Virus record (IMG/VR): IMGVR_UViG_3300044698_000419
Location: 1-64,000 of that record
From: a virus
Strand: one strand, 5' to 3'
DNA: 64,000 nt
Part shown: positions 23,366 through 57,726 of the stretch, piece after piece
How positions within the stretch are numbered: position 1 is the first letter of the stretch
Layout of the letters: each line of letters begins with the position of its first letter
Program-made: the position numbers and the translations under genes
Notes under the pieces: model-generated
The model's input: the letters and a program-made list of their open reading frames with translations, nothing else
What the model was told of the DNA's origin: nothing
Database searches by the model: none

Positions 23366-23367
23366 CA

Positions 23368-25812: not shown

Positions 25813-25885
25813 AGGGACGTAGCTCAATTGGTAGAGCGCTGGTCTCCAAAACCAGTACATGGGGGTTCAAGTCCCTCCGGCCCTG
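25813..25885 (+). tRNA. trnW: tRNA-Trp(CCA)
   Basis: Cloverleaf; anticodon arm CTGGT-CTCCAAA-ACCAG; GTTCAAGTC. Confidence 0.93.
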
Positions 25886-25931
25886 CTGGCTTCCGGGATT
25901 TCATCCCCCCCGATATCCCGGAAGCCGTTAA

Positions 25932-26006
25932 CGGAATGTGGCGCAGTTTGTGTAGCGCGCTCGCTTCGGGAGCGAGAGGTCGCGAGTTCAAATCTCACCA
26001 TTCCGA
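25932..26006 (+). tRNA. trnP: tRNA-Pro(CGG)
   Basis: CTCGC-TTCGGGA-GCGAG; acceptor CGGAATG/CATTCCG. Confidence 0.92.
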
Positions 26007-26175
26007 CTGGATCCCAGGAGTCGTACTTCTTTCCCGAAGGCGTCGTCCACAGCTCCTGGGATCCGAAGTTCCCGCGCCGCTGACGGTAGTCGGAAACGCA
26101 GGTGTGGCAACCTGCACAGAGAGCATCGCCCGCCGGGCAGGCGGGTGGTCGGTAGCAGAAAGGCGATGCTCTCGC

Positions 26176-26248
26176 GCCCTTGTAGCTCAGTTGGTAGAGC
26201 GCTTCTTTCGTAATGAAGATGTCGCAGGTTCGACTCCTGTCGAGGGCT
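26176..26248 (+). tRNA. trnT: tRNA-Thr(CGT)
   Basis: CTTCT-TTCGTAA-TGAAG; GTTCGACTC. Confidence 0.92.
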
Positions 26249-26394
26249 CGACGGTGCACGGTTCGGTCTCAGAAACCGACGCGTGTATGCCGATGGGAAT
26301 CCTGGTTGGACAGACCCGGGTTTTCGGTTGGCAGACCCCTGGTGAAACGCTGTCCCGGGAAGCCAGGGGTTCCGGTAAAATAGGGACGGAGAGG

Positions 26395-26508
26395 ATGAGA
26401 AAAGTGTTGATGGACATCCTGGATGCGTGGTTGCATCACTGGGGATGGCTGTGGATGGTCGTCGGACTCTGTGGGTTCGTCGTCGTGGCAGCCGTTTCCA
26501 ACAACTGA
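26395..26508 (+). CDS. 37-aa single-TM peptide inside tRNA cluster
   Basis: MRKVLMDILDAWLHHWGWLWMVVGLCGFVVVAAVSNN with GGAGAGG RBS. Confidence 0.4.
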   Translation: MRKVLMDILDAWLHHWGWLWMVVGLCGFVVVAAVSNN

Positions 26509-26514
26509 ATACGG

Positions 26515-26587
26515 GCGCCCTTAGCTCAGTTGGCAGAGCAGTGGATTCTTAATCCACGTGTCACTGGTTCAAGTCCAGTAGGGCGTA
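26515..26587 (+). tRNA. trnK: tRNA-Lys(CTT)
   Basis: GTGGA-TTCTTAA-TCCAC. Confidence 0.93.
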
Positions 26588-26669
26588 CTGTCGCATTCGG
26601 ATGGCTTTCCATGGACGGTATGATCCGATGCGATCGGTCTGAGATTCTGGATCGGGGTCTCAGGCTGAA

Positions 26670-26742
26670 TGGGGTGTAGCTCAGTGGAAGGAGCGCCCGA
26701 CTACGGATCCGGAGGACGGGAGTTCGAATCTCCCTACCCCAA
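26670..26742 (+). tRNA. trnR: tRNA-Arg(ACG)
   Basis: Loop CTACGGA; one anticodon-stem mismatch; GTTCGAATC. Confidence 0.88.
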
Positions 26743-26765
26743 CGCAATAAACGAACGATAAACGA

Positions 26766-26841
26766 GCGCCTGTGGAGGAGTCTGGCCGTCCTCACCGCCC
26801 TGTCAAGGCGGATATCGCGGGTTCAAATCCCGTCAGGTGCG
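26766..26841 (+). tRNA. trnD: tRNA-Asp(GTC)
   Basis: CCGCC-CTGTCAA-GGCGG. Confidence 0.93.
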
Positions 26842-26987
26842 CTGGCTTTGGAGAACGTCCGACGGAGTCCGTCATCCCCGAGATGGCTATCCGATGGGCG
26901 GTGAGTGAGCCAGGTGAGTCCATGCCAACCTCGATCCAGGAGGCACTTGGATGGCGGCCCCTGCCTAACCGAAATCAAGGGGTGCAA

Positions 26988-27061
26988 GGATCTGTAGCTC
27001 AGGTGCGAAGAGCGCTCGTCTGAAAAACGAGAGGTCGCTGGTTCAACTCCAGCCGGATCCA
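26988..27061 (+). tRNA. trnF: tRNA-Phe(GAA)
   Basis: CTCGT-CTGAAAA-ACGAG. Confidence 0.92.
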
Positions 27062-27161
27062 CAGGTCGGACGGTAAGTCGTTGACGTCGATCCACTGTGG
27101 CAGGTGGGTCATTCGCGGCGAAAGCGGCCCGTGCGCGGAGTGTTTGCCGTCCGACTGCCAT

Positions 27162-27233
27162 TCCCCTGTAGTTTAACTGGCAGAACACCGGCCTCTGGAG
27201 TCGGGAATCTTGGTTCAAATCCAGGCGGGGGAG
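27162..27233 (+). tRNA. trnQ: tRNA-Gln(CTG)
   Basis: CCGGC-CTCTGGA-GTCGG. Confidence 0.92.
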
Positions 27234-27261
27234 CCGGTCGAAAAGGAGAGGAAGGGAACAA

Positions 27262-27468
27262 GTGAAGTTCACTCTGGAGCTGGACCTGTCGAGCGAAGAG
27301 TTCGCCAACCGCAGTAACAGCGACATGGTCCAGGGTGGAAGCATCGGCTTCTACCTGACCGAGGCCGCGAAGCGCATCGACGGCCACGCGATGGCGGCCG
27401 GAGAGAACGGTAAGATCCTTTCGGATGACGATGACACTGTCATCGGATCATGGAGGATCGAGCCTTGA
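27262..27468 (+). CDS. Hypothetical protein
   Basis: Purine-rich RBS; codon bias. Confidence 0.65.
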   Translation: MKFTLELDLSSEEFANRSNSDMVQGGSIGFYLTEAAKRIDGHAMAAGENGKILSDDDDTVIGSWRIEP

Positions 27469-27481
27469 TCGACGAGTTCAA

Positions 27482-27554
27482 TCTCCTGTAGCTCAATCGG
27501 CAGAGCGCCGGATTGTTAATCCGGATGTTACTGGTTCAAGTCCAGTCAGGAGAG
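27482..27554 (+). tRNA. trnN: tRNA-Asn(GTT)
   Basis: CCGGA-TTGTTAA-TCCGG. Confidence 0.93.
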
Positions 27555-27644
27555 CGTGTGCCGACGACACTATGCAATCCTTTGGTCTGAAAAACCGGGG
27601 AGAGCCGCAGTCGGTGGTAAAGGGCCATGGTGCGCACCGTGGCC

Positions 27645-27742
27645 GCTCGGGAAACGGAACTCCGAGTCAGAGCCTGGAAAACGGGGCACTCGGAATGGCC
27701 TTGAGGGGACGCCTTCAGCAGGTTCGAAGCCTGCCCCGAGCA
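27645..27742 (+). ncRNA. tRNA-like element (acceptor + T arm, non-canonical middle)
   Basis: GCTCGGG/CCCGAGC-A acceptor; GCAGG-TTCGAAG-CCTGC T arm; no normal D/anticodon arm. Confidence 0.55.
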
Positions 27743-27839
27743 CTCAGATGTGACCGCATCGAATCTGGAGGGATCGAGATGTTCTCCACCGGCTTCACCT
27801 AGGTCCGCGAAATTCGCGGCCCTAGGAGGATGAATTCCG

Positions 27840-28235
27840 ATGGGCAAGACGGCACATCACCTGAAGGGCAAGTTCGACACGCGCGAATGGCCCGACGGGT
27901 ACATGATGTACTGGCGGGGACGGCCCGTTGTCCCCGTACGTGAGCACACCGTCCACGACCTGCGCTACAGCGCTGCGGAACTCCGCGACGCGGAAGAACA
28001 GGGACGTCGGGCCCGGCCCAGGAAGGTGCGGCGCACCGCGCGCTGGTGGACCTACACCGGGGCCTGGACGCCGAGTTCCAGCCGGACCTACTGGGCAGGC
28101 AAGAACGAACGCGCCAACCGGCGTTACGTGAAGAGCCAGCTCGACGGAGGACGCCGGACCAAGGGCGAACTCGAACGAAGGCTGTACGAGAAGGCCGAGA
28201 GGAAGCCTCGCCGGATGCTTTACGACATCTGGTGA
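27840..28235 (+). CDS. Basic hypothetical protein
   Basis: RBS AGGAGG. Confidence 0.6.
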   Translation: MGKTAHHLKGKFDTREWPDGYMMYWRGRPVVPVREHTVHDLRYSAAELRDAEEQGRRARPRKVRRTARWWTYTGAWTPSSSRTYWAGKNERANRRYVKSQLDGGRRTKGELERRLYEKAERKPRRMLYDIW

Positions 28236-28244
28236 GGGAGGAAA

Positions 28245-28318
28245 GCTCCTGTAGCTCAGGGGATAGAGCACTGGTTTCCTAAACCGGGTTGTCGCAGGTT
28301 CGATTCCTGTCAGGAGCA
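28245..28318 (+). tRNA. trnR: tRNA-Arg(CCT)
   Basis: CTGGT-TTCCTAA-ACCGG. Confidence 0.92.
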
Positions 28319-49042: not shown

Positions 49043-49112
49043 CTGACGGCCATCGTCAGGCAGCACCTCATGCTGCGACCCCACTGGCTGTGGGGTTTCG
49101 GCCTCGGGTCAG
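49043..49112 (-). ncRNA. Hammerhead ribozyme (type II), HHR1
   Basis: CUGAC-CCGA-GGCC GAAA CCCCAC-AGCCA-GUGGGG UC GCAGCA-UGAGG-UGCUGC CUGACGA U GGCC-GUCAG; predicted cut 49077/49076. Confidence 0.9.
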
Positions 49113-49113
49113 G

Positions 49114-49329
49114 TCAGCCGCCGAGCTTCTTCAGGCCCTCCGCGATGGCGGCCAGGTAGTTCACCTGGGCGATCTGCGCCAGGGTGCCGAGGTCCAGTTC
49201 GGAGACCTCGTAGCCCTCCTCCTGGGCAGCCTTGAACTGCTCCCCGATGACCCCGTTCAGGGCGTCGGCGGTCTGCCGGGCGATCTCCAGGTAGTTCGTC
49301 GGGTCCGTGATGACGGGAATACCGGCCAT
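49114..49329 (-). CDS. 71-aa helical hypothetical protein flanked by two hammerheads
   Basis: RBS GGAAAGAGG; strong codon bias. Confidence 0.75.
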   Translation of the reverse strand: MAGIPVITDPTNYLEIARQTADALNGVIGEQFKAAQEEGYEVSELDLGTLAQIAQVNYLAAIAEGLKKLGG

Positions 49330-49356
49330 GGCTTTTCCTCTTTCCGATTCTTCTCA

Positions 49357-49426
49357 CTGACGGCCATCGTCAGGTGCGGCACCACCGCACGACGTCGCTG
49401 GCTGCGACGTTTCGGCCTCGGGTCAG
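49357..49426 (-). ncRNA. Hammerhead ribozyme (type II), HHR2
   Basis: CUGAC-CCGA-GGCC GAAA CGUCGC-AGCCA-GCGACG UC GUGCGG-UGGUG-CCGCAC CUGACGA U GGCC-GUCAG; predicted cut 49391/49390. Confidence 0.9.
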
Positions 49427-49713
49427 TTCTTCTCGTCGGCGGGCCCGTCCTCGGCGTAGTCCGGGTCCATCCAGTTCGCCGCCTGGATGGCGCCACAGGC
49501 ACCGCACTCACCGCCGTCGGCGGAGTGCTCGTGGTACTTCCCGAACTCGCGCCGGATGCGCTCCGCCCACAGGCGACGCACGGCCAGCTCGTCCTCGTGG
49601 TGGCGCAGGAGCTTGTCCAGGATCGGACCACCACCCTCGGCCTCGGTGAGACCTTGCACCACCAGCTCGGCGAGTCGCGCCGTCTCCCCCTTCTTCGGCT
49701 TCTCTCTGATCAC
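49423..49713 (-). CDS. Hypothetical protein
   Basis: GTGA coupling; stop codon lies inside HHR2 stem II. Confidence 0.6.
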   Translation of the reverse strand: MIREKPKKGETARLAELVVQGLTEAEGGGPILDKLLRHHEDELAVRRLWAERIRREFGKYHEHSADGGECGACGAIQAANWMDPDYAEDGPADEKN

Positions 49714-49997
49714 GATCCCTCTCCTTCCTCCGGCGGCAGGCTCGGGAGCCTCGGGGACAGGCGCGTGCCCAGTCCCCATCCCTGAATCCTGCGGTTCTGC
49801 TGCATGTCCTCGGCGATCATGCTGACAAGCTCACTCCGGAAGTACTCGCTCCAGAAGCGGGTGAAGTCCTCCGGGTCCTGATCGAAGTTCTCGATCATCT
49901 TCTCGGTGCTGGCGTACGCCAGCGGGATACCGAACAGCTCCAGGATGATGACCTCGTGTCCGTTCTCCTGCACCTTGCCGATGCGGATCACGTCCAT
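49710..49997 (-). CDS. Hypothetical protein (paralog pair)
   Basis: GHEVIILELFGIPLAYA. Confidence 0.65.
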   Translation of the reverse strand: MDVIRIGKVQENGHEVIILELFGIPLAYASTEKMIENFDQDPEDFTRFWSEYFRSELVSMIAEDMQQNRRIQGWGLGTRLSPRLPSLPPEEGEGS

Positions 49998-50299
49998 CAC
50001 TCGCTCCCGAAGGGACCGAGGCGGTACACCTCGCGGCCGGTCGGAGACTCGGTACGCCACTTCACGTAGTCGTGGTCGTAGCCCTCGGTCAGCGACTTGG
50101 CCAGCAGACTCCCGAGCCGGGCCGAGAAGGTCTCCTCCCAGTCCTCGGTGTCCTGGTGGCCGGACTCGAACTCGTGGGCGTCGGCGTACAGGACCGGGAT
50201 GCCCAGGATCTCCAGGACGTAGACCTCGTTGCCCTTCTGGTCCGTAGCCAGGCCGACCCGGAAGAGTCCGCGCACTTCGTTCACGTCGATCTGTGCCAT
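49997..50299 (-). CDS. Hypothetical protein (paralog pair)
   Basis: GNEVYVLEILGIPVLYA. Confidence 0.65.
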   Translation of the reverse strand: MAQIDVNEVRGLFRVGLATDQKGNEVYVLEILGIPVLYADAHEFESGHQDTEDWEETFSARLGSLLAKSLTEGYDHDYVKWRTESPTGREVYRLGPFGSE

Positions 50300-50300
50300 G

Positions 50301-50510
50301 TCATCGCCATCCCGTGGGGTAGTGGGACCCGGCCGTCAGGCTCTCGTCCAGCTTCTCGAAGTCATCGAGCAGGGCCTGCGTCTCCTGCTCGATGTTCGTT
50401 CCGTACTGCGGGTTCTCCCAGCCGTCCCGGATTTTCTTCGCCCGGTCCCTGATGTCCACCAGCAGGTCGTTCAGCGCCACCTCGTCGAGGATCGCCGGTT
50501 CCTTCGCCAT
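50301..50510 (-). CDS. Hypothetical protein
   Basis: RBS GGGGAGG. Confidence 0.65.
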   Translation of the reverse strand: MAKEPAILDEVALNDLLVDIRDRAKKIRDGWENPQYGTNIEQETQALLDDFEKLDESLTAGSHYPTGWR

Positions 50511-50521
50511 GCCCTCCCCCT

Positions 50522-50851
50522 TCAGGAGTTGTATCGGGGCGCCGTGCGCTCCAGGTAGACGCGCCAGGAACCGGGGCTCTCGCCTTCACCCTCGTTCAGG
50601 TAGGTCTGCCGACGGGCGAAGAACGCAGCCCGGATCTCGTGCGTTTCACCCAGGTACGGCTTCACGTCCGAAGGGGCGCCCCACGTGGTCACCCCGCCCA
50701 GGCAGTCGCAGATCAGGCCGCTGCCCTGGCGGGAAAGGCAATTCGAGCCGTGTTCGTCCGGGGAGATTTCCCGGAAGCCCATCTCCTTGAGGATCTGGAG
50801 CTTGGTCTCGGGGCTCAGCCCTGCGTAGTCGATGTTCACTCCGTGCTGCAT
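50522..50851 (-). CDS. Hypothetical protein
   Basis: Leader CGGAAACGGAGAAGG. Confidence 0.65.
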   Translation of the reverse strand: MQHGVNIDYAGLSPETKLQILKEMGFREISPDEHGSNCLSRQGSGLICDCLGGVTTWGAPSDVKPYLGETHEIRAAFFARRQTYLNEGEGESPGSWRVYLERTAPRYNS

Positions 50852-50870
50852 GTCCTTCTCCGTTTCCGAT

Positions 50871-51347
50871 TCAGTTCACATCGAGCAGGCCCTGACCGGC
50901 CGCGTCTCCCAGGGTCATCACCTGGCCGCCGTAGTCGACGGTGACGGGACCGTGGTCCTTCATGTCCAGGTAGCTCCCGGCCGGAACCGTGAGGCGCACA
51001 CCGGGCTCCCGGTCGACGCCCATCGACGTGGTCCCGGCGCACTGGATGGTCGTTCCCGTGCTGGCCGAGGAAACCTGGGAGAACGAGGCTCCCGGCATGA
51101 TCATCGACATGGTGCGCCGGACCGTGGACGGGTCCTCGTTGACGGCGCGGACCTTCACGCCGGTCCCGTGCCTGCCGCCGGGGCCGAGCTGGACCGTGTT
51201 GGCGCCGAGGGGCACCATCTCGGCACTCACCCGGGCGCCATGGTGGTCGACGACCTGGATGTACACCGGAAGACCGGTCACCTCGACCTCGACTGACGTG
51301 GTGCCGGTGAGCGGGTGGACGTAGGTGAGCAGGGTCTTCTTCTTCAT
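50871..51347 (-). CDS. Hypothetical beta-rich protein (paralog pair)
   Basis: LPVYI...PGVRLTVP...KD.G.V.V. Confidence 0.65.
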   Translation of the reverse strand: MKKKTLLTYVHPLTGTTSVEVEVTGLPVYIQVVDHHGARVSAEMVPLGANTVQLGPGGRHGTGVKVRAVNEDPSTVRRTMSMIMPGASFSQVSSASTGTTIQCAGTTSMGVDREPGVRLTVPAGSYLDMKDHGPVTVDYGGQVMTLGDAAGQGLLDVN

Positions 51348-51862
51348 CGCGCGATCCCCAGGATTCCCTCGGCGGCGGCGGCTTCGATGGTCATGTCCCG
51401 CCCCTCATGGAGAACGGAAACCGCTCCGACGTCCTTCAGCTCGAAGGTGCAGTACAACGGAACCGTGAGGTGCACGCCGGGACCTGACGGCAGATCCGCC
51501 TTGCCGTCCACGAAGACCCTCGCGCCGTCCCCGGTGGCGCAGTGGGTGATGCTCCCGCCCGAGACGACAGAGCCCCTTCCGGTGGACCTGATGGAGCTGC
51601 CGCCGCCGGAGATCGAAGACCCCTGCCGCAGGCCGAGGGTGTCCTTCAGGCTGTCGAGGAAGGAGGGCCTTCCGACCTTGACCTCCATGGCGACACCACG
51701 GATCCCCGTGGGTCCTACGTGGGCGGCGAGGCCACGGTCGGCCAGAATGTCGGCCTCCCGGTATTCGGCTTCGGGGGTGGCGGTGATGTAGACCGGAAGA
51801 TCCGGCGAGGTGATGACCACCCGGCCAGCCCCGGCCAGGTGGTGCCTGTGCATCAGACGCAT
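51344..51862 (-). CDS. Hypothetical beta-rich protein (paralog pair)
   Basis: LPVYI...PGVHLTVP...KD.G.V.V. Confidence 0.65.
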   Translation of the reverse strand: MRLMHRHHLAGAGRVVITSPDLPVYITATPEAEYREADILADRGLAAHVGPTGIRGVAMEVKVGRPSFLDSLKDTLGLRQGSSISGGGSSIRSTGRGSVVSGGSITHCATGDGARVFVDGKADLPSGPGVHLTVPLYCTFELKDVGAVSVLHEGRDMTIEAAAAEGILGIAR

Positions 51863-51885
51863 CGTGCTCTTCTCCGTTTCCGAGT

Positions 51886-52251
51886 TCAGTCGTTGGTTCC
51901 CAGTGCCTGTCGGCACCCGTCCGTGAAGTGCTTCTGCGCGGCGCGGGTCTTCTCGCGTGAGCCACCCATGGACTCTTCGATCGCGGCGTTGCGCAGTGCG
52001 CGCATCCTGTCGAGGAGTTCGCCGTTGCAGAAGAGCGTCGCCACGTCCATCGCCCGGTCCAGCTCGACCGCCGAGTCCACCAGTCCCTCCCCCTTGGAGG
52101 GAGGGCGACAAGCCTCGGAGACCTTCATGAGGACGTCGAGGAAGGCTTCCTTCGCCGTGTGGCTGTAGTGCGGTTCGTCCCACCCGGCCAAGCGGGGAAC
52201 CTGCGGAACGGGCTCCAGCTCCTCTTCCTTCCTCCGGCCGAACAGTCTCAT
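51886..52251 (-). CDS. Hypothetical protein
   Basis: ATGA coupling. Confidence 0.6.
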   Translation of the reverse strand: MRLFGRRKEEELEPVPQVPRLAGWDEPHYSHTAKEAFLDVLMKVSEACRPPSKGEGLVDSAVELDRAMDVATLFCNGELLDRMRALRNAAIEESMGGSREKTRAAQKHFTDGCRQALGTND

Positions 52252-52751
52252 TTGCCGGAGTCCTTGTCGCCGAGGAACGTGAGAATCAGGGGGGAGCGGA
52301 TGAAGCAGGTGTGAAGCTGGTGCAGCAGCAGAACCCCGGACGGGGAAAGATCCTCCCACCGGGCCTGCCAGTACTCACCGGTCTCCCTGGACTTCAGAGT
52401 GCGGTCGGTGGAGCCGAGGTGCACAGCGGCCACCATCTCCTGCGAGAGCGCGGCGAGGGGCAACTGAGCCCTCACGAGAGCGGCCTTACCGTGCTCACCC
52501 TTCTCGTCGAAGAGTTCACCGGCCTGTTCGAACAGCTTTTCGTCGCCCTCCAGGCTCTCCTTGGTGGACCAGAACTGCGAACCCGGCATGATCGGGCCGT
52601 CGCCGGGCCGGAGCACGGTGATCGCGGCGCCGACGGCACACTCGTCCGTCTCGTCCTGGCGGGGGAGCATGGTCAGGACGTACATGCCCGGCCCGTCCAC
52701 CTCTTCCCAGGATTCCCCAGCCTTGGGGAATTTCACCAACTGGTTTGCCAT
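52248..52751 (-). CDS. Hypothetical protein
   Basis: RBS AAGGAGAGG. Confidence 0.7.
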   Translation of the reverse strand: MANQLVKFPKAGESWEEVDGPGMYVLTMLPRQDETDECAVGAAITVLRPGDGPIMPGSQFWSTKESLEGDEKLFEQAGELFDEKGEHGKAALVRAQLPLAALSQEMVAAVHLGSTDRTLKSRETGEYWQARWEDLSPSGVLLLHQLHTCFIRSPLILTFLGDKDSGK

Positions 52752-52773
52752 TACCTCTCCTTCCGTCGCGGGA

Positions 52774-52799
52774 ATCGTATCACTGATCGGCCTAGGTCA
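52774..52799 (-). promoter_or_regulatory. Operator TGACCTAGGCCG plus -10 TACGAT
   Basis: Recurrent motif after terminator. Confidence 0.6.
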
Positions 52800-52811
52800 C
52801 GCGGAAACGCA

Positions 52812-52846
52812 ACGAGGGGCGGCCCCGGAATGGGACCGCCCCTCGT
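52812..52846. terminator. Hairpin terminator
   Basis: ACGAGGGGCGG...CCGCCCCTCGT. Confidence 0.65.
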
Positions 52847-52853
52847 GATGACG

Positions 52854-53165
52854 TCAGACCCGGAGCATCCCGCCGACGACCTCGTACTCGTGCCACAAGT
52901 ACGGCTCGCCGCTGTCGTCGTCGTCCTCGTGCAGCAGCGCGGTCAGCACCGTCCAGAGAGTTCCCTGACCGTCGTCCAGCCAATCCCCACGGTGCAGGAA
53001 CGGGCGGTGCGGCGAGTGGTGGTCCTCCTTCGGGATGACGTCGATCGAAGCGAAGGTGTCCTTCTCGATGACGTCAGTCCGCAGGATCGAGGACTTCACC
53101 ACGTCCTGAGCGGCGTCCCCGAGGTCCGCGTACTTGCGGGGAACGACGGTGACCTTGTCCAGCAT
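52854..53165 (-). CDS. Hypothetical protein
   Basis: Codon bias. Confidence 0.6.
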   Translation of the reverse strand: MLDKVTVVPRKYADLGDAAQDVVKSSILRTDVIEKDTFASIDVIPKEDHHSPHRPFLHRGDWLDDGQGTLWTVLTALLHEDDDDSGEPYLWHEYEVVGGMLRV

Positions 53166-53167
53166 GT

Positions 53168-53596
53168 TCAGGCCCCCTTCATCCACAGGTAGTCCTTGCG
53201 GAACAGCCAGATGCCGTTCGCGTTGTTGACCACGATGTGTTCGGTCTTCTGCTTCTCCAGGAAGTTGCGGACCAGGGCCTTCTTGATCTCCTCCATCAGG
53301 CCGGAGGAGAAACCCTGCTCGTCGGTGGCGTCCCAGTACTCCTCGAACTCGACCGAGACCAGCTCGCCTTCGTCGTCCCAGCGCTGGACCTTCGCGAGCA
53401 TGGCGGTGATCACCATTCGTTCGTTCAGCTCGGTGACGTCGAGGTTGTTCCGGAGGGCGAGGGCCCACAGCGCCTCGGCCGCCGCGCGGATGTCGTACTG
53501 GCTGGCGCTTCGCAGAAGCGGGTAGCGGGAGTAGTCGGAGTCGGCCGCCTTGGCGGCGAAGTCGTCGGCGAACTGGCTGCGTCCATATGCCTGCAT
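53168..53596 (-). CDS. Hypothetical protein
   Basis: RBS AGGAG. Confidence 0.65.
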   Translation of the reverse strand: MQAYGRSQFADDFAAKAADSDYSRYPLLRSASQYDIRAAAEALWALALRNNLDVTELNERMVITAMLAKVQRWDDEGELVSVEFEEYWDATDEQGFSSGLMEEIKKALVRNFLEKQKTEHIVVNNANGIWLFRKDYLWMKGA

Positions 53597-53625
53597 GTCT
53601 TCTCCTGATCCGTGGTTCAAGACGA

Positions 53626-53651
53626 AGGGGCGCCCGGCGTGGGCGCCCCTC
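53626..53651. terminator. Hairpin terminator
   Basis: AGGGGCGCCC...GGGCGCCCCT. Confidence 0.6.
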
Positions 53652-53659
53652 GATGGGAC

Positions 53660-53737
53660 TCAGCGTCCCTGCTCCTCGGCCTTGCGCGCGTCTTCCAGCG
53701 CCTTGCCGGGCTCCCGCTTGGGCAGCTTGTCAGCCAT
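53660..53737 (-). CDS. 25-aa micro-ORF MADKLPKREPGKALEDARKAEEQGR
   Basis: Own -10, operator, SD GAGGAGG and terminator; below ORF-track cutoff. Confidence 0.6.
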   Translation of the reverse strand: MADKLPKREPGKALEDARKAEEQGR

Positions 53738-53755
53738 GCCGCTTCCTCCTCTCCG

Positions 53756-53772
53756 TGACCTAGGCCAGTCTA
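53756..53772 (-). promoter_or_regulatory. -10 TAGACT plus operator TGGCCTAGGTCA
   Basis: Exact operator overlapping predicted start site. Confidence 0.65.
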
Positions 53773-53789
53773 GCGTGCTCCGGACGTGA

Positions 53790-54158
53790 TCAGAAGTGCG
53801 GGTCGAAGTACTTGTCCCGGCTGCCCAGGATCAGACCCGACCCCTTCCCGCCCTGGCCCTTCGGGACCCACCTGCCCTTCAGGTTCACGGTGTACGTGGC
53901 GATGGCGCCCTCGGTGTCCCTCCCGTACTCGTACTTCGCCGAGCCGTCCCCCGCGCTCCCCGACACCACCTTCCAGGTGTCGTGCTGGACGTCGATCTCC
54001 CGGGGCTGACCCTTGCGGGCGCCGGACTTGAACTCCCGCACGGCCACGACGGTGACCGGGTCCCGGTCGGACCAGTGGGTAACCGTCGCCCCCATCCCGA
54101 CCTCCGGGACCTTCTTCGTGGGGCCTTCGCTCAGACGGTTGACCAGCGATCCCTGCAT
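53790..54158 (-). CDS. Conserved phage hypothetical protein
   Basis: PEVGMGAT..WSDR.P.TV...G.RDKYFDPHF. Confidence 0.7.
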   Translation of the reverse strand: MQGSLVNRLSEGPTKKVPEVGMGATVTHWSDRDPVTVVAVREFKSGARKGQPREIDVQHDTWKVVSGSAGDGSAKYEYGRDTEGAIATYTVNLKGRWVPKGQGGKGSGLILGSRDKYFDPHF

Positions 54159-54442
54159 CAGATCTCCCTTTCCGGAGGAAGCTGGTTCCCGAGGTTCGGG
54201 TCACAGCGGTAGAACAGAACCGAAAACTTGGCCAGGTTGGGCTCAAGGCTCGGCTTCAGCGGGGCGTCCAGGCGGAGTTCCGCCGAAGCGGCCAGCAGGG
54301 TCTTCGCGAACCTGCCCTTCTCGTTCAGATCGTCCGAGTCGTAGAAGATCCCGCTGGCCGACGACACCCGCTCGTGACCGCCCGTCGGGTTCACCAACTG
54401 GATGGTCAGCAGGTAGAAGTACGAGATCGCGCGGCCGTTCAC
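54158..54442 (-). CDS. Hypothetical protein
   Basis: Coupled at both ends. Confidence 0.55.
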   Translation of the reverse strand: MNGRAISYFYLLTIQLVNPTGGHERVSSASGIFYDSDDLNEKGRFAKTLLAASAELRLDAPLKPSLEPNLAKFSVLFYRCDPNLGNQLPPEREI

Positions 54443-54702
54443 AGCGTCTCTTCGATCATCCGCAGCGCTTCGGCCTTGCCGATCTGGCCCGCCAGAACGA
54501 GCAGTGCCTGCGCCCCCTGTTCGCTCGTCAGGGCGACGATCGTGGACTCCGGGTTCCGGCTGTCGACGGGGACCAGGATGTCGCACCCGTCCACCGCGCC
54601 CAGGCCCTCCAGGAGGATCGGCCGGTCGCCGTAGATGCTGTCCTCCAGGTCGGCGTCGGCGTTCCCGATCCTCGCCTCGTGGTCGATCTCGCTGTAGTGC
54701 AT
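54439..54702 (-). CDS. Hypothetical protein
   Basis: RBS GGAGAAG. Confidence 0.6.
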   Translation of the reverse strand: MHYSEIDHEARIGNADADLEDSIYGDRPILLEGLGAVDGCDILVPVDSRNPESTIVALTSEQGAQALLVLAGQIGKAEALRMIEETL

Positions 54703-54770
54703 TTCTTCTCCCTCTCCGTGAGATTCCACGGCGAAGGCGCGGCCCGCAGGCCACGCCCCACCGAAGCGCC

Positions 54771-54956
54771 TCAGTCCTGTCGTTCTTCCGGCTTCCGGAT
54801 CTCGACCTCGGCCGGTCCCCGCCACTGCGGAGGGTTCTCCGTCAGGAAGTCCGCGACCCGGCGCTGGACGATCTCCGCCAGGTGCCGGTCGCTCCGACTG
54901 TGGAAGCCGTCCGACTTCGGGAGCCGGATCACGATCTCGAACTCGTTGCCGCTCAT
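54771..54956 (-). CDS. Hypothetical protein
   Basis: ATGA coupling. Confidence 0.55.
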   Translation of the reverse strand: MSGNEFEIVIRLPKSDGFHSRSDRHLAEIVQRRVADFLTENPPQWRGPAEVEIRKPEERQD

Positions 54957-55555
54957 CGCTCACCCTTCCCGTTGTCCAGGATCATGGCGTTCGGGTCCCA
55001 GCCGCCGTCGCCCCGCTCGATGTAGCAGGAGACCGACGTGGCCGACTGGCCCCGGGTGGCGACCCATGCCGGAGCGAGAACGGCCCCGAAGTAGAAGCCC
55101 TTCTTCGCGTTGTTGCGGTCCCGGACCTTCTCGCTCTGTGCCTGCGACTCGTTGAAAGTGGCTCCGGTGCGGTTCCCTTCGTCGTCCAGGAGGGACCAGA
55201 AGGCCCCGTACTGGCCGTACACCTCCTTCGCCGGAACTAGGTTGCCCTCCAGGTCGAAGAGGGCGGAGAAGGACCACATGCCGCCGTTCTCGGCGACGTC
55301 GGCGCGCAGCCGGTACTTCTCGGCGGTGATCCCGCTCGCCCACTGGGAGAGGAACCCGTCGGTGTCGCACCGGTCGAAGGAGTCGGCCGCGTCCCGGTCC
55401 TTGCCTTTCGCCATCTCCCGGAGTTCAGCCGCCTTCTTGCGTGCGGCCTCCACGTCGTACTCGAAGCCGACCTGGGCGGCGAACGGAAGGTTCAGGCCCG
55501 TCTCCTCGGCCATCTCCTTCGCCAACACCGTCTCCTCCTCGCGCGTCATTGCCAT
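54953..55555 (-). CDS. Hypothetical protein
   Basis: SFDRCDTDGFLSQWA; codon bias. Confidence 0.7.
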   Translation of the reverse strand: MAMTREEETVLAKEMAEETGLNLPFAAQVGFEYDVEAARKKAAELREMAKGKDRDAADSFDRCDTDGFLSQWASGITAEKYRLRADVAENGGMWSFSALFDLEGNLVPAKEVYGQYGAFWSLLDDEGNRTGATFNESQAQSEKVRDRNNAKKGFYFGAVLAPAWVATRGQSATSVSCYIERGDGGWDPNAMILDNGKGER

Positions 55556-55572
55556 GCCGTGTCCCCTTTCCG

Positions 55573-55770
55573 TTACGAGATGGTGAAAGACCCAAGCCGG
55601 ACGGACTTCGCTCCCTTGTCGGCGAGCGTGTCCACCAGGAGTTTCGGGTCTTCGGTGAAGTTCTTCCGGTCGATCTCGACACGTTCTCCCGGGCTGCTGG
55701 CGCCCGGGTACAGCTCGGGATCGACCTCGTACTCGAAGACGACCGTGACCCGGATGAACTCTCCGGCCAT
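55573..55770 (-). CDS. Hypothetical protein
   Basis: TGATG coupling. Confidence 0.6.
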   Translation of the reverse strand: MAGEFIRVTVVFEYEVDPELYPGASSPGERVEIDRKNFTEDPKLLVDTLADKGAKSVRLGSFTIS

Positions 55771-56225
55771 CAGCCCTCCCTGACGTTCAGCCCGTACACG
55801 TGGACATCCGCAGCACTGTCGCCCAGCCAGTGCTGCACCAGGTGAGCGACCTCCCGCTTCGGAAGGCCGCCGAGCCCGCAGCCGAGCGGGGGGAGGGCGA
55901 CCGAGGCGAGGCCCGTCTCGTCCAGGTACCGGCGCAGCCCGGCCAGCCCGGCGGACACGTCGTAGATGTGGGACGAATCCTTCCAGTGCCGCTTGGTGGC
56001 CACGTTCAGGATCCTCTTCCCGCCCGGCAGGAGGATGTCGTGAACCACGCCGGGCCGCATCTTCCCCGCCTCACAGAAGGCCGTGTACTCCCGCATCTGC
56101 ACGGGCCAGCGGTTGCGGAACTGAAGCGCCAGCCCGGCCCCGGCCACGCCGACGCAGTTCACGGCGTTGACCAGACCCAGGGCTGGGGACTCGAAGAGAT
56201 CCCCCTCCGCCTTAATCAGGGTCAC
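55770..56225 (-). CDS. Macrodomain protein (DarG/Poa1p-like ADP-ribose hydrolase)
   Basis: GDLF, VNAVNCVGVAGAGLA, TK.HW, ALPPLGCGLGGL. Confidence 0.9.
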   Translation of the reverse strand: MTLIKAEGDLFESPALGLVNAVNCVGVAGAGLALQFRNRWPVQMREYTAFCEAGKMRPGVVHDILLPGGKRILNVATKRHWKDSSHIYDVSAGLAGLRRYLDETGLASVALPPLGCGLGGLPKREVAHLVQHWLGDSAADVHVYGLNVREG

Positions 56226-56557
56226 GACGCGTCCGCCTTCCAGATGTCGATGCTCTCCTCGGTCATCATGTCGATCCAGTCGGAGAGGTGGATCAGCCAG
56301 TGGCCGCCGATCGTGAGACCGGGGATCTGGTCGTGCAGCGTCAACCCCTTCTCCCGGGGTGCGTGGATGACCGAACCGGCACGGTAGGAGACCAGCGGGC
56401 GCAGCCCGTGCGGGGTGTGCTCCTGGACTTCGAGCAGGCTGTCGTAGCCGAACCGTCCGGACTTCTCCTCCAGGTGCATGGTCAGCCGCAGCAGCGTACC
56501 GTCCTGGGCGGGGAGGTCCATGGCGACGGACTCGGGGCTCTTCTTCATGTCCCGCAC
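56222..56557 (-). CDS. Hypothetical protein
   Basis: Coupled. Confidence 0.6.
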   Translation of the reverse strand: MRDMKKSPESVAMDLPAQDGTLLRLTMHLEEKSGRFGYDSLLEVQEHTPHGLRPLVSYRAGSVIHAPREKGLTLHDQIPGLTIGGHWLIHLSDWIDMMTEESIDIWKADAS

Positions 56558-56558
56558 C

Positions 56559-56855
56559 TCAGTTGTAGGGAACGATCAGGATGTAGAGCGCGCCCGGCAG
56601 GCGGCCTGTGACGACCAGATTGTTCAGCATGACCATCACGCCGGGCTGGTTCTCTCCACTGTCCCGCCAGAGCTGGATGGCCATGATCTCGGGGACTGAC
56701 GGATAGCAGTACCGCAGGTCGAAGACGTGTCGGGATCCGTCCTCCGGGTTTCCCAGCGCCGCCATCACGTCGTACTCGCGGCCGAACTGGTCCGAGATTT
56801 CCCGCTGCGCCTCGCGGAGCAGCACGGTCTCAGCCTCGATCTTCTCGGTTTCCAT
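56559..56855 (-). CDS. Hypothetical protein
   Basis: RBS GAGGAG. Confidence 0.6.
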   Translation of the reverse strand: METEKIEAETVLLREAQREISDQFGREYDVMAALGNPEDGSRHVFDLRYCYPSVPEIMAIQLWRDSGENQPGVMVMLNNLVVTGRLPGALYILIVPYN

Positions 56856-56872
56856 CTTCTCCTCATTCCGAA

Positions 56873-56892
56873 TGGCCTAGGTCACAAGATAC
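56873..56892 (-). promoter_or_regulatory. -10-like TATCTT plus operator TGACCTAGGCCA
   Basis: Exact operator after terminator. Confidence 0.6.
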
Positions 56893-56895
56893 GCA

Positions 56896-56927
56896 GAAGG
56901 GGCCCCGGTCGCAACCAGAGCCCCTTC
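56896..56927. terminator. Hairpin terminator
   Basis: GAAGGGGC...GCCCCTTC. Confidence 0.6.
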
Positions 56928-56941
56928 CCGTGCCGTTGGCG

Positions 56942-57169
56942 TCAGACGGCGACCATACGCACGCAGGCGAGCGCCAGGAGGATCGCGTTCTCCTCACCGG
57001 CACGCAGGGCGCGCTCGACCTCGACGTAGAACTCCCGGTCGGCAGTGTCGGCGTCGGCCTCGATCTTGTCGGAGAGCATCCCCGACACCCACTCCAGGGT
57101 GTCGGTCGGCAGGCCGGGGAAACCCCGGGCGATCTGCGAACGGATCTCTTCGCGGCTGGGCAGCTTCAC
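56942..57169 (-). CDS. Hypothetical protein downstream of hammerhead 3
   Basis: GTG behind AAGGAGAAG. Confidence 0.6.
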   Translation of the reverse strand: MKLPSREEIRSQIARGFPGLPTDTLEWVSGMLSDKIEADADTADREFYVEVERALRAGEENAILLALACVRMVAV

Positions 57170-57192
57170 GTTCTTCTCCTTCTCGTTCTTCA

Positions 57193-57265
57193 CTGACGGC
57201 CATCGTCAGGCGGGGCTTCCGTTCGCCCCGCGACCCCCTCTCAGGGGTTTCGGCCTCGGAGTCAG
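57193..57265 (-). ncRNA. Hammerhead ribozyme (type II), HHR3
   Basis: CUGAC-UCCGA-GGCC GAAA CCCCU-GAGA-GGGGG UC GCGGGGC-GAACGGAA-GCCCCGC CUGACGA U GGCC-GUCAG; predicted cut 57232/57231. Confidence 0.9.
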
Positions 57266-57726
57266 CGCCAGTTCTTGCGGGCCTCGTTGACGACCTCCTC
57301 GGCGTCGGCCAGCGCGGCGGCCAGCCGGTACACCGAGCCCATCCCGGGGGTGCTGAGCGAGCTGATCCCCAGCAGGCCGCGCACCCGGGAGTAGGCGGCC
57401 GTCACCGAGAAGCATCCCGGACTCCGGGTGCACGGCCGGTGCGTGCCCCGGTCGAGCTGGCCCAGCTCCCGGCGCAGCTCCTCCCCGTACTTCAGCTTCC
57501 GGCGGGCCTTGCCCTCCGGCGTGGCGTACGCCTGAAGCACTTCGACGTGCGGGTGACCGGGGTCGACGACCCACCCCTCCCGCTCGACGTAGTCACGCAT
57601 GGAGTCGACGTAGGAGGTGGCGATCTTCCGCATCACCGGATATGCGTCGTTCCACAGTCCGGCGATCTCGGCGGCGGCCTCCCCGGAGAGGGGGCTGTGA
57701 TCCTGGACGACGGGCGCGGTGACCAC
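57262..57726 (-). CDS. Hypothetical protein
   Basis: Stop codon inside HHR3 stem II. Confidence 0.6.
   Translation of the reverse strand: MVTAPVVQDHSPLSGEAAAEIAGLWNDAYPVMRKIATSYVDSMRDYVEREGWVVDPGHPHVEVLQAYATPEGKARRKLKYGEELRRELGQLDRGTHRPCTRSPGCFSVTAAYSRVRGLLGISSLSTPGMGSVYRLAAALADAEEVVNEARKNWR

What the first reader, a model, noticed from the sequence alone, without database searches (positions are those of the whole stretch)
49043..57265. Family of three type II hammerhead ribozymes with full stem covariation
Seen: all three share GGCC-GAAA, stem III, GUC, stem I, CUGACGA-U-GGCC-GUCAG. Stem III is CCCCAC/GUGGGG, CGUCGC/GCGACG or CCCCU/GGGGG. Stem I is GCAGCA/UGCUGC, GUGCGG/CCGCAC or GCGGGGC/GCCCCGC. 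Sequence changes while pairing is kept, which indicates selection on RNA structure. All carry one extra U between A9 and G10.1; established: single insertions there are tolerated in natural hammerheads such as CChMVd(+) and sLTSV(+). Each sits between a stop codon and the next RBS. Inference: programmed processing of phage polycistronic mRNA.
Basis: partly seen in the sequence, partly recalled or inferred. Interest (0 to 1): 0.88.

Follow-up and report, generated by a model that had tools for sequence, protein, structure and literature searches.

The report
Phage hammerhead ribozymes with masking tail
Three genuine self-cutting RNA motifs (type II hammerhead ribozymes) lie between small genes of a Streptomyces phage. 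The kind has been known in phages since 2011, but these carry a five-base tail that can either clamp the active shape, by pairing with a stretch holding the upstream stop codon, or fold back and hide the catalytic core.

Summary
Three minus-strand elements (49357-49426, 49043-49112, 57193-57265) have the full hammerhead core, type II topology, one extra U between A9 and G10.1, and differing but paired stems I and III. Rfam's type II model is the best match for each (32.9, 28.1, 24.1 bits) but below its cut-off of 37.

A model built from two copies finds the third. It also finds orthologues in the cultured Streptomyces phages Satis, Kela and Frankenweenie, and about 100 copies in uncultured phage contigs. 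Across 90 distinct copies 99% of stem cells pair and 15 of 17 pairs show compensatory change.

The extra U is common in this phage subclass (34 of 72). This scan has reported that self-masking tail several times on other DNA, and I confirmed it independently.

New here: in 24 of 53 tail-bearing copies, including all three in the window, a copy of the core five-mer lies 2-5 nt (once 9) upstream of stem II. It usually holds or abuts the upstream stop codon, and it can take the tail instead, extending stem II.

Cleavage itself and any regulation are untested. I class this as a new variant of a known kind, of moderate interest.

The parts
49357..49426 (-). Hammerhead A, whole element. Upstream five-mer 49426-49422 (holds stop UGA 49425-49423); bulge 49421-49418; stem II 5' strand 49417-49414; G12-A14 49413-49411; stem III hairpin 49410-49392; C17 49391; cut 49391|49390; stem I hairpin 49390-49374; core C3-A9 49373-49367; inserted U 49366; stem II 3' strand 49365-49362; tail 49361-49357.
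   Evidence: Sequence; RF02276 32.9 bits, E 8e-5; own model 101.7 bits. The minimum-energy fold is the three-way junction with extended stem II, -35.0 kcal/mol, z -2.68.
49043..49112 (-). Hammerhead B, whole element. Upstream five-mer 49112-49108, with a second copy at 49117-49113 that holds stop UGA 49116-49114; bulge 49107-49104; stem II 5' strand 49103-49100; stem III hairpin 49096-49078; C17 49077; cut 49077|49076; stem I hairpin 49076-49060; core 49059-49053; inserted U 49052; stem II 3' strand 49051-49048; tail 49047-49043.
   Evidence: Sequence; RF02276 28.1 bits; own model 100.1 bits. The isolated element folds as the hammerhead junction. With longer flanks the masked fold is 1.4 kcal/mol better.
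57193..57265 (-). Hammerhead C, whole element. Upstream five-mer 57265-57261 (holds stop UGA 57264-57262); 5-nt bulge 57260-57256; stem II 5' strand 57255-57252; stem III hairpin 57248-57233; C17 57232; cut 57232|57231; stem I hairpin 57231-57210 (7 bp, 8-nt loop); core 57209-57203; inserted U 57202; stem II 3' strand 57201-57198; tail 57197-57193.
   Evidence: Sequence; RF02276 24.1 bits; own model 63.1 bits although it was not used to build the model. Orthologues in Frankenweenie and Kela show a compensatory stem II change.
49423..49779 (-). 118-aa ORF upstream of hammerhead A; its stop codon lies inside the upstream five-mer.
   Evidence: ORF list; no Pfam or PHROG family; co-oriented hypothetical genes in Satis.
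49114..49329 (-). 71-aa ORF bracketed by hammerheads A and B; cutting at both would release a 314-nt RNA (49390 down to 49077).
   Evidence: ORF list; the same bracket occurs in Satis but not in Kela or Frankenweenie.
56942..57169 (-). 75-aa ORF downstream of hammerhead C, starting at GTG 57169-57167 behind a GAAGGAG ribosome-binding site.
   Evidence: Sequence; the N-terminus matches Satis gene 269.
57262..57726 (-). 154-aa ORF upstream of hammerhead C; its stop codon lies inside the upstream five-mer.
   Evidence: ORF list.

Best explanation
The three elements are working type II hammerhead ribozymes, transcribed as part of minus-strand polycistronic phage messages. Each folds into stems I and III (capped hairpins) and an open 4-bp stem II around a complete catalytic core. 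One U is looped out between A9 and G10.1. Each cuts itself after GUC, which separates the upstream gene's message from the next gene's ribosome-binding site.

They belong to a wide phage-borne subclass with these features:
- an A before a GGCC stem II;
- a 17-nt stem I hairpin whose loop starts with U;
- a purine after stem II.

This subclass scores below Rfam's cut-off.

The five bases after stem II have two possible partners. Pairing with the upstream five-mer, which holds or abuts the upstream stop codon, lengthens stem II across a 4-5 nt bulge and favours the active fold. Pairing with core C3-N7 (plus G8 with the last stem II base) gives a hairpin that hides the core.

My preferred reading is as follows. 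The active fold forms first. After the cut, the tail flips onto the core. That frees the 3' product from the 5' product, blocks re-ligation, and leaves the downstream message with a 5'-OH end buried in two adjacent hairpins, which should protect it.

Shown: the sequence features, covariation, enrichment and predicted energies. Inferred: cleavage, the order of folding, and the effect on message stability.
For: Core and topology can be read directly. RF02276 is the best Rfam match for each copy, with E from 8e-5 to 8e-3.

A model from copies A and B finds C at 63 bits. It also finds nine strong (two further weak) co-oriented intergenic copies in Satis, Kela and Frankenweenie. These include a G-C to A-U change in stem II and an inserted C in Kela.

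On 90 distinct phage copies 99.1% of cells pair and 15 of 17 pairs change on both sides. No shuffle of 500 reaches this, and slid controls pair 40-46%.

Insertion: 34 U and 1 C among 72 copies found by a pattern that did not fix that position. The precedent is CChMVd A10 (PMC1636495).

Tail and core:
- 20 of 72 copies have full five-base complementarity, against 1.1 expected (maximum 6).
- N7 pairs with the first tail base as U:A 9, C:G 9, A:U 1, U:G 1, with 1 mismatch.
- On the alignment the counts are CG 27, UA 20, UG 10; 77.8% of cells pair against 6-33% when slid.

Upstream partner: present in 24 of 53 tail-bearing copies and 2 of 57 tail-less copies, with a shuffle mean of 2.3 and maximum of 8. 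The upstream ORF's UGA lies inside the partner in 15 of 24 and just before it in 4 more.

Energies: the active and masked folds lie within 1.4-4 kcal/mol of each other for the three copies. The 3' products fold as two adjacent hairpins in 80-96% of the ensemble. Across the family the upstream partner shifts the median balance from +1.95 to -1.4 kcal/mol.

Tertiary motif: A before stem II in 107 of 110, a purine after it in 95 of 101, and U first in loop 1 in 98 of 110. This matches the loop 1 / loop 2 motif of natural hammerheads (PMC2632901).

Clustered hammerheads that cut polycistronic prophage RNA in vitro and in vivo are documented in PMC3088659.
Against: - No cleavage assay and no RNA data exist for this phage.
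- All three copies score below Rfam's gathering cut-off.
- The inserted base lies next to the A9/G10.1 site, and in CChMVd it lowers the rate moderately (PMC1636495).
- The family samples were drawn with patterns that fixed the core and one stem II strand, so core invariance in them is not independent evidence. The alignment was also fitted to the model.
- The upstream five-mer and the tail hardly vary, so that helix rests on enrichment, not covariation. Stop codon context could add to the enrichment.
- The energy gain from the extra helix follows by construction.
- Nearest-neighbour energies ignore tertiary contacts and ribosomes.
- Copy C lacks the 17-nt stem I hairpin with a leading U.
Confidence: 0.8

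Rival explanations
1. The three-strand layout is a translation-sensing switch. A ribosome stopping on the UGA inside the upstream five-mer would free the tail to mask the core, so cutting is off. Alternatively, a 30S subunit loading on the nearby ribosome-binding site would hold the tail away from the core, so cutting is on. Either way each message would be cut according to how it is being translated.
For: The stop codon lies inside or just before the upstream partner in 19 of 24 family copies and in all three window copies. The two folds are nearly iso-energetic. The tail ends 14-27 nt before the next start codon.
Against: More than half of tail-bearing copies (29 of 53) have no upstream partner. 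Stop codons next to or inside hammerheads are common in compact phage operons generally, according to earlier notes of this scan, which are unchecked. There are no ribosome or RNA data.
Confidence: 0.15
2. The elements are structured intergenic repeats or decayed ribozymes kept for another purpose, such as an RNase or protein site or a barrier to exonucleases. They no longer self-cleave, because the inserted U or the masking hairpin disables them.
For: Rfam scores are sub-threshold. The masked fold is predicted to be the better one for copy B and for 25 of 28 family copies that lack the upstream partner.
Against: Every catalytic position is kept in all window copies and their strong orthologues, while the stems change by compensation. 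The inserted U is held in about half of an otherwise canonical family. A related locus in Frankenweenie has no insertion at all. Type II hammerheads near phage-like genes cleave in vivo in D. vulgaris (PMC8782182).
Confidence: 0.07
3. Hammerheads A and B act as a pair that excises the 314-nt RNA carrying the 71-aa gene. Its ends rebuild a chimeric hammerhead and are joined into a circular mRNA, either by the ribozyme or by a host RtcB-type ligase.
For: Both copies have identical stem II arms and tails. The excised RNA's 5' end (stem I of A plus the stem II 3' strand and tail) and its 3' end (upstream five-mer, stem II 5' strand and stem III of B) could therefore reassemble a full ribozyme. The bracket is kept in Satis.
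Against: Kela and Frankenweenie have only one of the two copies. Neither 314 nt nor the 310 nt in Satis is a multiple of three, and the ORF has a stop, so there is no endless frame. The tail hairpin would work against reassembly. A similar bold reading on other DNA failed a later check (e1-2575356).
Confidence: 0.05

Closest known systems
Type II hammerhead ribozymes of bacteria and prophages (Rfam RF02276; Perreault et al. 2011, PMC3088659)
   Same: Same core, same permuted topology (stems I and III capped, stem II open) and the same A before stem II. The context is also the same: several copies flanking single small genes in phage DNA, proposed to cut polycistronic RNA.
   Different: - Stem II is 4 bp (GGCC) rather than about 2 bp.
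- There is one inserted U after A9.
- There is no loop I / 3'-tail pseudoknot.
- The 3' tail instead pairs with the core or with an upstream five-mer.
- Scores are 24-33 bits against a cut-off of 37. Only 1 of more than 25 such copies in 19 loci passes the cut-off.
CChMVd (+) hammerhead with extra A10 between A9 and G10.1 (PMC1636495)
   Same: A single extra nucleotide at the same core position in a natural, functional hammerhead.
   Different: It is a type III viroid ribozyme; the extra base is A, and it serves the viroid's global fold. Here the base is U (C in Kela), and it recurs in about half of a phage subclass.
Loop 1 / loop 2 tertiary motif of natural hammerheads (Dufour et al. 2009, PMC2632901)
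   Same: A U at the 5' side of loop 1, an A at the 3' side of the loop 2 position, and a purine opposite that A. All three are kept in 89-97% of the family.
   Different: There is no closed loop 2. The A is the last base of a bulge or of a single-stranded 5' flank. Copy C has a different loop 1. The contact itself is inferred, not tested.
Engineered allosteric hammerheads and riboswitch expression platforms
   Same: Mutually exclusive helices decide whether a functional fold forms.
   Different: No ligand or aptamer is present. The competing strands are the ribozyme's own core, its tail, and a stretch overlapping a stop codon.
Type II hammerheads of Desulfovibrio vulgaris shown active in vivo by cyPhyRNA-seq (PMC8782182)
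   Same: Type II ribozymes near phage-like genes. That method would directly test the sites predicted here.
   Different: A different host and subclass; no masking tail is described there.

Membership tests
Hammerhead ribozyme (class) | Conserved core: C3 U4 G5 A6 N7 G8 A9, G12 A13 A14, A15.1-U16.1, H17 | tested here: met
   Read directly in all three copies, with H17 = C and N7 = C. The core is unchanged in the nine strong copies (window plus orthologues).
Hammerhead ribozyme (class) | Three helices around the core, supported by covariation | tested here: met
   99.1% of cells pair, 15 of 17 pairs are compensatory, 0 of 500 shuffles reach this, and slid controls pair 40-46%. Caveat: the alignment was fitted to the model.
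Hammerhead ribozyme (class) | G10.1-C11.1 pair directly following A9 | tested here: not met
   One U lies between A9 and G10.1 in all three copies; the pair itself is present. The same insertion is in 35 of 72 family copies and is tolerated in CChMVd (PMC1636495). Frankenweenie has a related copy with no insertion.
Hammerhead ribozyme (class) | Mg2+-dependent self-cleavage 3' of H17 giving 2',3'-cyclic phosphate and 5'-OH ends | not testable with these tools
   No RNA run holds this sequence.
Type II hammerhead (Rfam RF02276) | Stems I and III closed by loops, stem II open | tested here: met
   Descriptor scan and folds.
Type II hammerhead (Rfam RF02276) | Score at or above the curated gathering cut-off (37 bits) | tested here: not met
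   32.9, 28.1 and 24.1 bits; no match at the gathering cut-off.
Type II hammerhead (Rfam RF02276) | Pseudoknot between loop I and the bases just 3' of stem II (the majority form in PMC3088659) | tested here: not met
   At most 3 bp of complementarity in some copies, and it is not conserved. The tail covaries with core N7 instead.
Self-masking-tail subclass of phage type II hammerheads (this scan's earlier notes; not found in print) | Five bases after stem II complementary to C3-N7, covarying with N7 | tested here: met
   All three copies have it. In the family, 20 of 72 against 1.1 expected; U:A 9 and C:G 9.

The most novel reading that the evidence does not exclude
The upstream five-mer, the core and the tail form a three-strand switch read by ribosomes. 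Termination on the UGA inside the upstream strand, or 30S loading beside the tail, decides whether the tail clamps stem II (cutting on) or masks the core (cutting off). Each phage message would then be cut according to its own translation. That would be a natural protein-free, ligand-free link between translation and ribozyme activity.
Probability: 0.15. Interest if true: 0.8.

Novelty: new variant of a known kind. Interest (0 to 1): 0.5.

Why it matters
What genomic hammerheads do in bacteria and phages is still an open question (PMC6765202). These copies add three things.

First, the same ribozymes are present but unannotated in cultured phages: Satis on S. lividans, and Kela and Frankenweenie on S. 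scabiei; close relatives of Satis (Kradal, Quantum, EhyElimayoE) match the region but were not scanned for the ribozymes. Cleavage and its effect on neighbouring genes can therefore be tested by ordinary phage genetics.

Second, a large phage subclass falls below Rfam's cut-off, so routine annotation misses it.

Third, the tail has two conserved partners, one of which overlaps a stop codon. This gives a concrete, mutable handle on whether phage hammerheads are regulated or merely constitutive cutters.

Tried and rejected
- Rfam at the gathering cut-off found only tRNAs in the window.
- Pfam and PHROGs gave no family for seven flanking ORFs.
- The sigma-70 promoter and terminator scan of 46-60 kb was uninformative apart from one terminator-like hairpin at 52827-52813.
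- Loop I / 3'-tail pseudoknot, as in the Rfam consensus: at most a 3-bp match in some copies and not conserved, so rejected.
- A loop I to loop III kissing contact (loop III is conserved in the A/B type): it does not hold for copy B, and the geometry is unlikely, so dropped.
- Reading the U as position 10.1 rather than as an insertion: this leaves C11.1 unpaired and breaks stem II register, so rejected.
- Exact-word search of the six held supplementary files of PMC3088659 for the 3' block found no occurrence. Not all files are held.
- Literature searches for a masking tail, for Streptomyces phage hammerheads, and for actinobacteriophage ribozymes found nothing relevant.
- No fourth copy was found in the 102-kb contig. 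The contig is about 54% complete, so a copy like the one at Kela 162 kb or Frankenweenie 177 kb may lie in the missing part.


Full report
WHAT IS THERE

On the minus strand there are three elements, each about 70 nt long: A 49357-49426, B 49043-49112 and C 57193-57265. Each reads, 5' to 3':
- a five-mer that is a copy of core C3-N7;
- a 4-5 nt bulge ending in A;
- a 4-base stem II strand;
- GAAA;
- a capped stem III;
- GUC;
- a capped stem I;
- the seven core bases;
- one extra U;
- the other stem II strand;
- a five-base tail.

The 17-base 3' block is exact in three places and nowhere else. Shuffles give 0.42 matches even when 3 mismatches are allowed. A descriptor I wrote for type II hammerheads finds only these three in the 102-kb contig.

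IS IT A HAMMERHEAD?

At Rfam's gathering cut-off nothing but ten tRNAs is reported. With permissive thresholds the type II hammerhead model RF02276 is the top match for each copy: A 32.9 bits, B 28.1 bits and C 24.1 bits, against a cut-off of 37. The alignments show why the scores fall short. There are extra bases after A9, and the tail does not fit the pseudoknot-forming consensus tail.

A covariance model built from A and B alone finds C at 63 bits.

The window comes from a Streptomyces phage related to Satis, Kradal, Quantum and EhyElimayoE (81-87% identity) and to Kela, JustBecause and Frankenweenie (about 75%). The model finds co-oriented intergenic copies in Satis (2), Kela (2 strong, 1 weak) and Frankenweenie (2 strong, 1 weak). 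None is annotated in those records.

Between orthologues the core is unchanged while the stems change by compensation. Kela's copy of C has an A-U pair in place of a G-C pair in stem II, and an inserted C instead of U. The weak locus in Frankenweenie is a fully canonical hammerhead with no insertion and H17 = A. Its Kela orthologue starts stem II with U opposite U, the mismatch that PMC3088659 reports as the best tolerated.

A WIDE PHAGE SUBCLASS

Together with the model they gave more than 100 distinct copies, often several per contig.

On 90 distinct sequences 99.1% of stem cells pair and 15 of 17 pairs show changes on both sides. No shuffle out of 500 reaches these values, and sliding the partner drops pairing to 40-46%.

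There are two caveats. The patterns fixed the core and one stem II strand, and the alignment was fitted to the model.

In the 72 copies found by a pattern that left N7, the insertion site and the 3' flank free, 34 have an inserted U, 1 an inserted C, and 37 none. The insertion is therefore a standard variant of this subclass, not a defect. CChMVd(+) is a published precedent for an extra base at this spot (PMC1636495). I could not verify the sLTSV(+) example.

Three further features are strongly kept:
- A before stem II in 107 of 110;
- a purine after stem II in 95 of 101;
- U as the first loop 1 base in 98 of 110, within a 17-nt stem I hairpin in 92 of 110.

These are the hallmarks of the loop 1 / loop 2 contact described for natural hammerheads (PMC2632901). 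A and B fit this motif; C has a longer loop 1.

Rfam at its gathering cut-off detects only 1 of more than 25 such copies in 19 loci. The U-bearing form also occurs in 16 bacterial genomes or MAGs of many phyla, presumably in prophages.

THE TAIL

The five bases after stem II are complementary to core C3-N7. In the less biased sample 20 of 72 copies have all five pairs, against 1.1 expected from shuffled tails (maximum 6). The only variable core base, N7, tracks the first tail base: U:A 9, C:G 9, A:U 1, U:G 1, with one mismatch. On the model alignment the helix is 77.8% paired, against 6-33% when slid, and the N7 pair reads CG 27, UA 20, UG 10.

This hairpin cannot coexist with the catalytic fold. 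I reached this reading before consulting the scan's earlier notes. Those notes show that the same self-masking tail has already been reported several times on other phage DNA, so it is not new to this scan. I found no paper that describes it.

WHAT IS NEW HERE

All three window copies and all six strong orthologues have, 4-5 nt upstream of stem II, a copy of the core five-mer. The tail can pair with this copy instead of with the core. That extends stem II to 9-10 bp across a bulge whose last base is the conserved A.

In the family sample the partner is present within 0-9 nt in 24 of 53 tail-bearing copies but in only 2 of 57 tail-less ones. Shuffled upstream flanks give 2.3 on average, with a maximum of 8. 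In 15 of the 24 the upstream ORF's UGA lies inside the partner, and in 4 more it lies just upstream, as in window copy B. An earlier-notes search for this feature found nothing.

The helix hardly varies, so the evidence for it is enrichment rather than covariation.

ENERGIES

- For A, the hammerhead with extended stem II is the minimum-energy fold: -35.0 kcal/mol against -31.0 for the masked fold.
- For B, the masked fold is better by 1.4 kcal/mol.
- For C, the active-like fold is better by 1.5 kcal/mol.

Across the family the upstream partner moves the median difference (active minus masked) from +1.95 to -1.4 kcal/mol. That shift is expected by construction. The predicted 3' cleavage products fold, in 80-96% of the ensemble, into stem I followed directly by a 6-bp core-tail hairpin.

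HOW IT MOST LIKELY WORKS

Transcription of the minus-strand operons yields the ribozyme between each stop codon and the next ribosome-binding site. Stem II and its extension form as the 3' strand and tail emerge, and the RNA cuts after C17.

The two products are held together only by stem II. The tail then swaps onto the core, which releases the products and prevents re-ligation. The downstream message is left with a 5'-OH end that is base-paired from its first nucleotide.

All steps after the fold are inference. A ribosome-sensing version is possible but less likely (about 0.15).

CONTEXT

- All flanking ORFs are small, co-oriented and without known families.
- C and the A/B pair are separated by terminator-like hairpins and by a plus-strand block, so they probably lie on different transcripts.
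- Copy number varies among relatives. Satis lacks the ribozyme at the C site, although the upstream five-mer and bulge bases remain there. Kela and Frankenweenie have one copy where the window and Satis have two.

VERDICT

These are real hammerheads of a known kind, in an under-annotated phage subclass, with a two-partner tail that makes regulation testable in cultured phages.

Noticed in passing
window 25813-28318 (+): An array of ten tRNA genes within 2.5 kb (Rfam scores 55-72 bits), typical of large phages.
   Followed up: no
window 52789-52800 (-), 56874-56885 (-), 53755-53766 (+); one-mismatch copies at 23367 (+) and 63068 (+): An exact 12-base near-palindromic motif. At the two minus-strand sites it lies just after a terminator-like GC hairpin and 15-35 nt before a ribosome-binding site. 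The same arrangement occurs in Satis. It may be a promoter or operator element marking transcription-unit boundaries. At 52.8 kb the bases that follow it resemble the hammerhead's stem II 3' strand plus tail, differing by one inserted base, which is why the ribozyme model gives weak hits there.
   Followed up: partly
L226 890-925 (Satis, orthologous to window 57190-57270): Satis has no hammerhead at the site of copy C, yet it keeps the upstream five-mer with the stop codon and the four bulge bases, directly followed by the next gene's leader. It also has one extra small gene there. This suggests loss or gain of the ribozyme as a module.
   Followed up: partly
L013 1501-1578 (Kela 162056-162133) and L014 1501-1579 (Frankenweenie 176645-176723): A fourth hammerhead locus in relatives, with a long stem III loop. 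Frankenweenie's copy is canonical, with no insertion and H17 = A. Kela's has U opposite U at 10.1/11.1 and H17 = U. No counterpart exists in the 102-kb contig, which is about half of the genome.
   Followed up: partly
window 49077-49390 (-): Cutting at A and B would release a 314-nt RNA carrying only the 71-aa ORF and its ribosome-binding site. Its two ends could rebuild a complete chimeric hammerhead. The length is not a multiple of three, and the bracket is absent in Kela and Frankenweenie.
   Followed up: partly
L026 (IMGVR_UViG_3300047160_002917) 1214-3498: An uncultured phage contig with at least six hammerheads of this subclass within 2.3 kb. Its stem II covaries as G-A-C-C with G-G-U-C, and one copy has A-A-C-C with G-G-U-U.
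   Followed up: no
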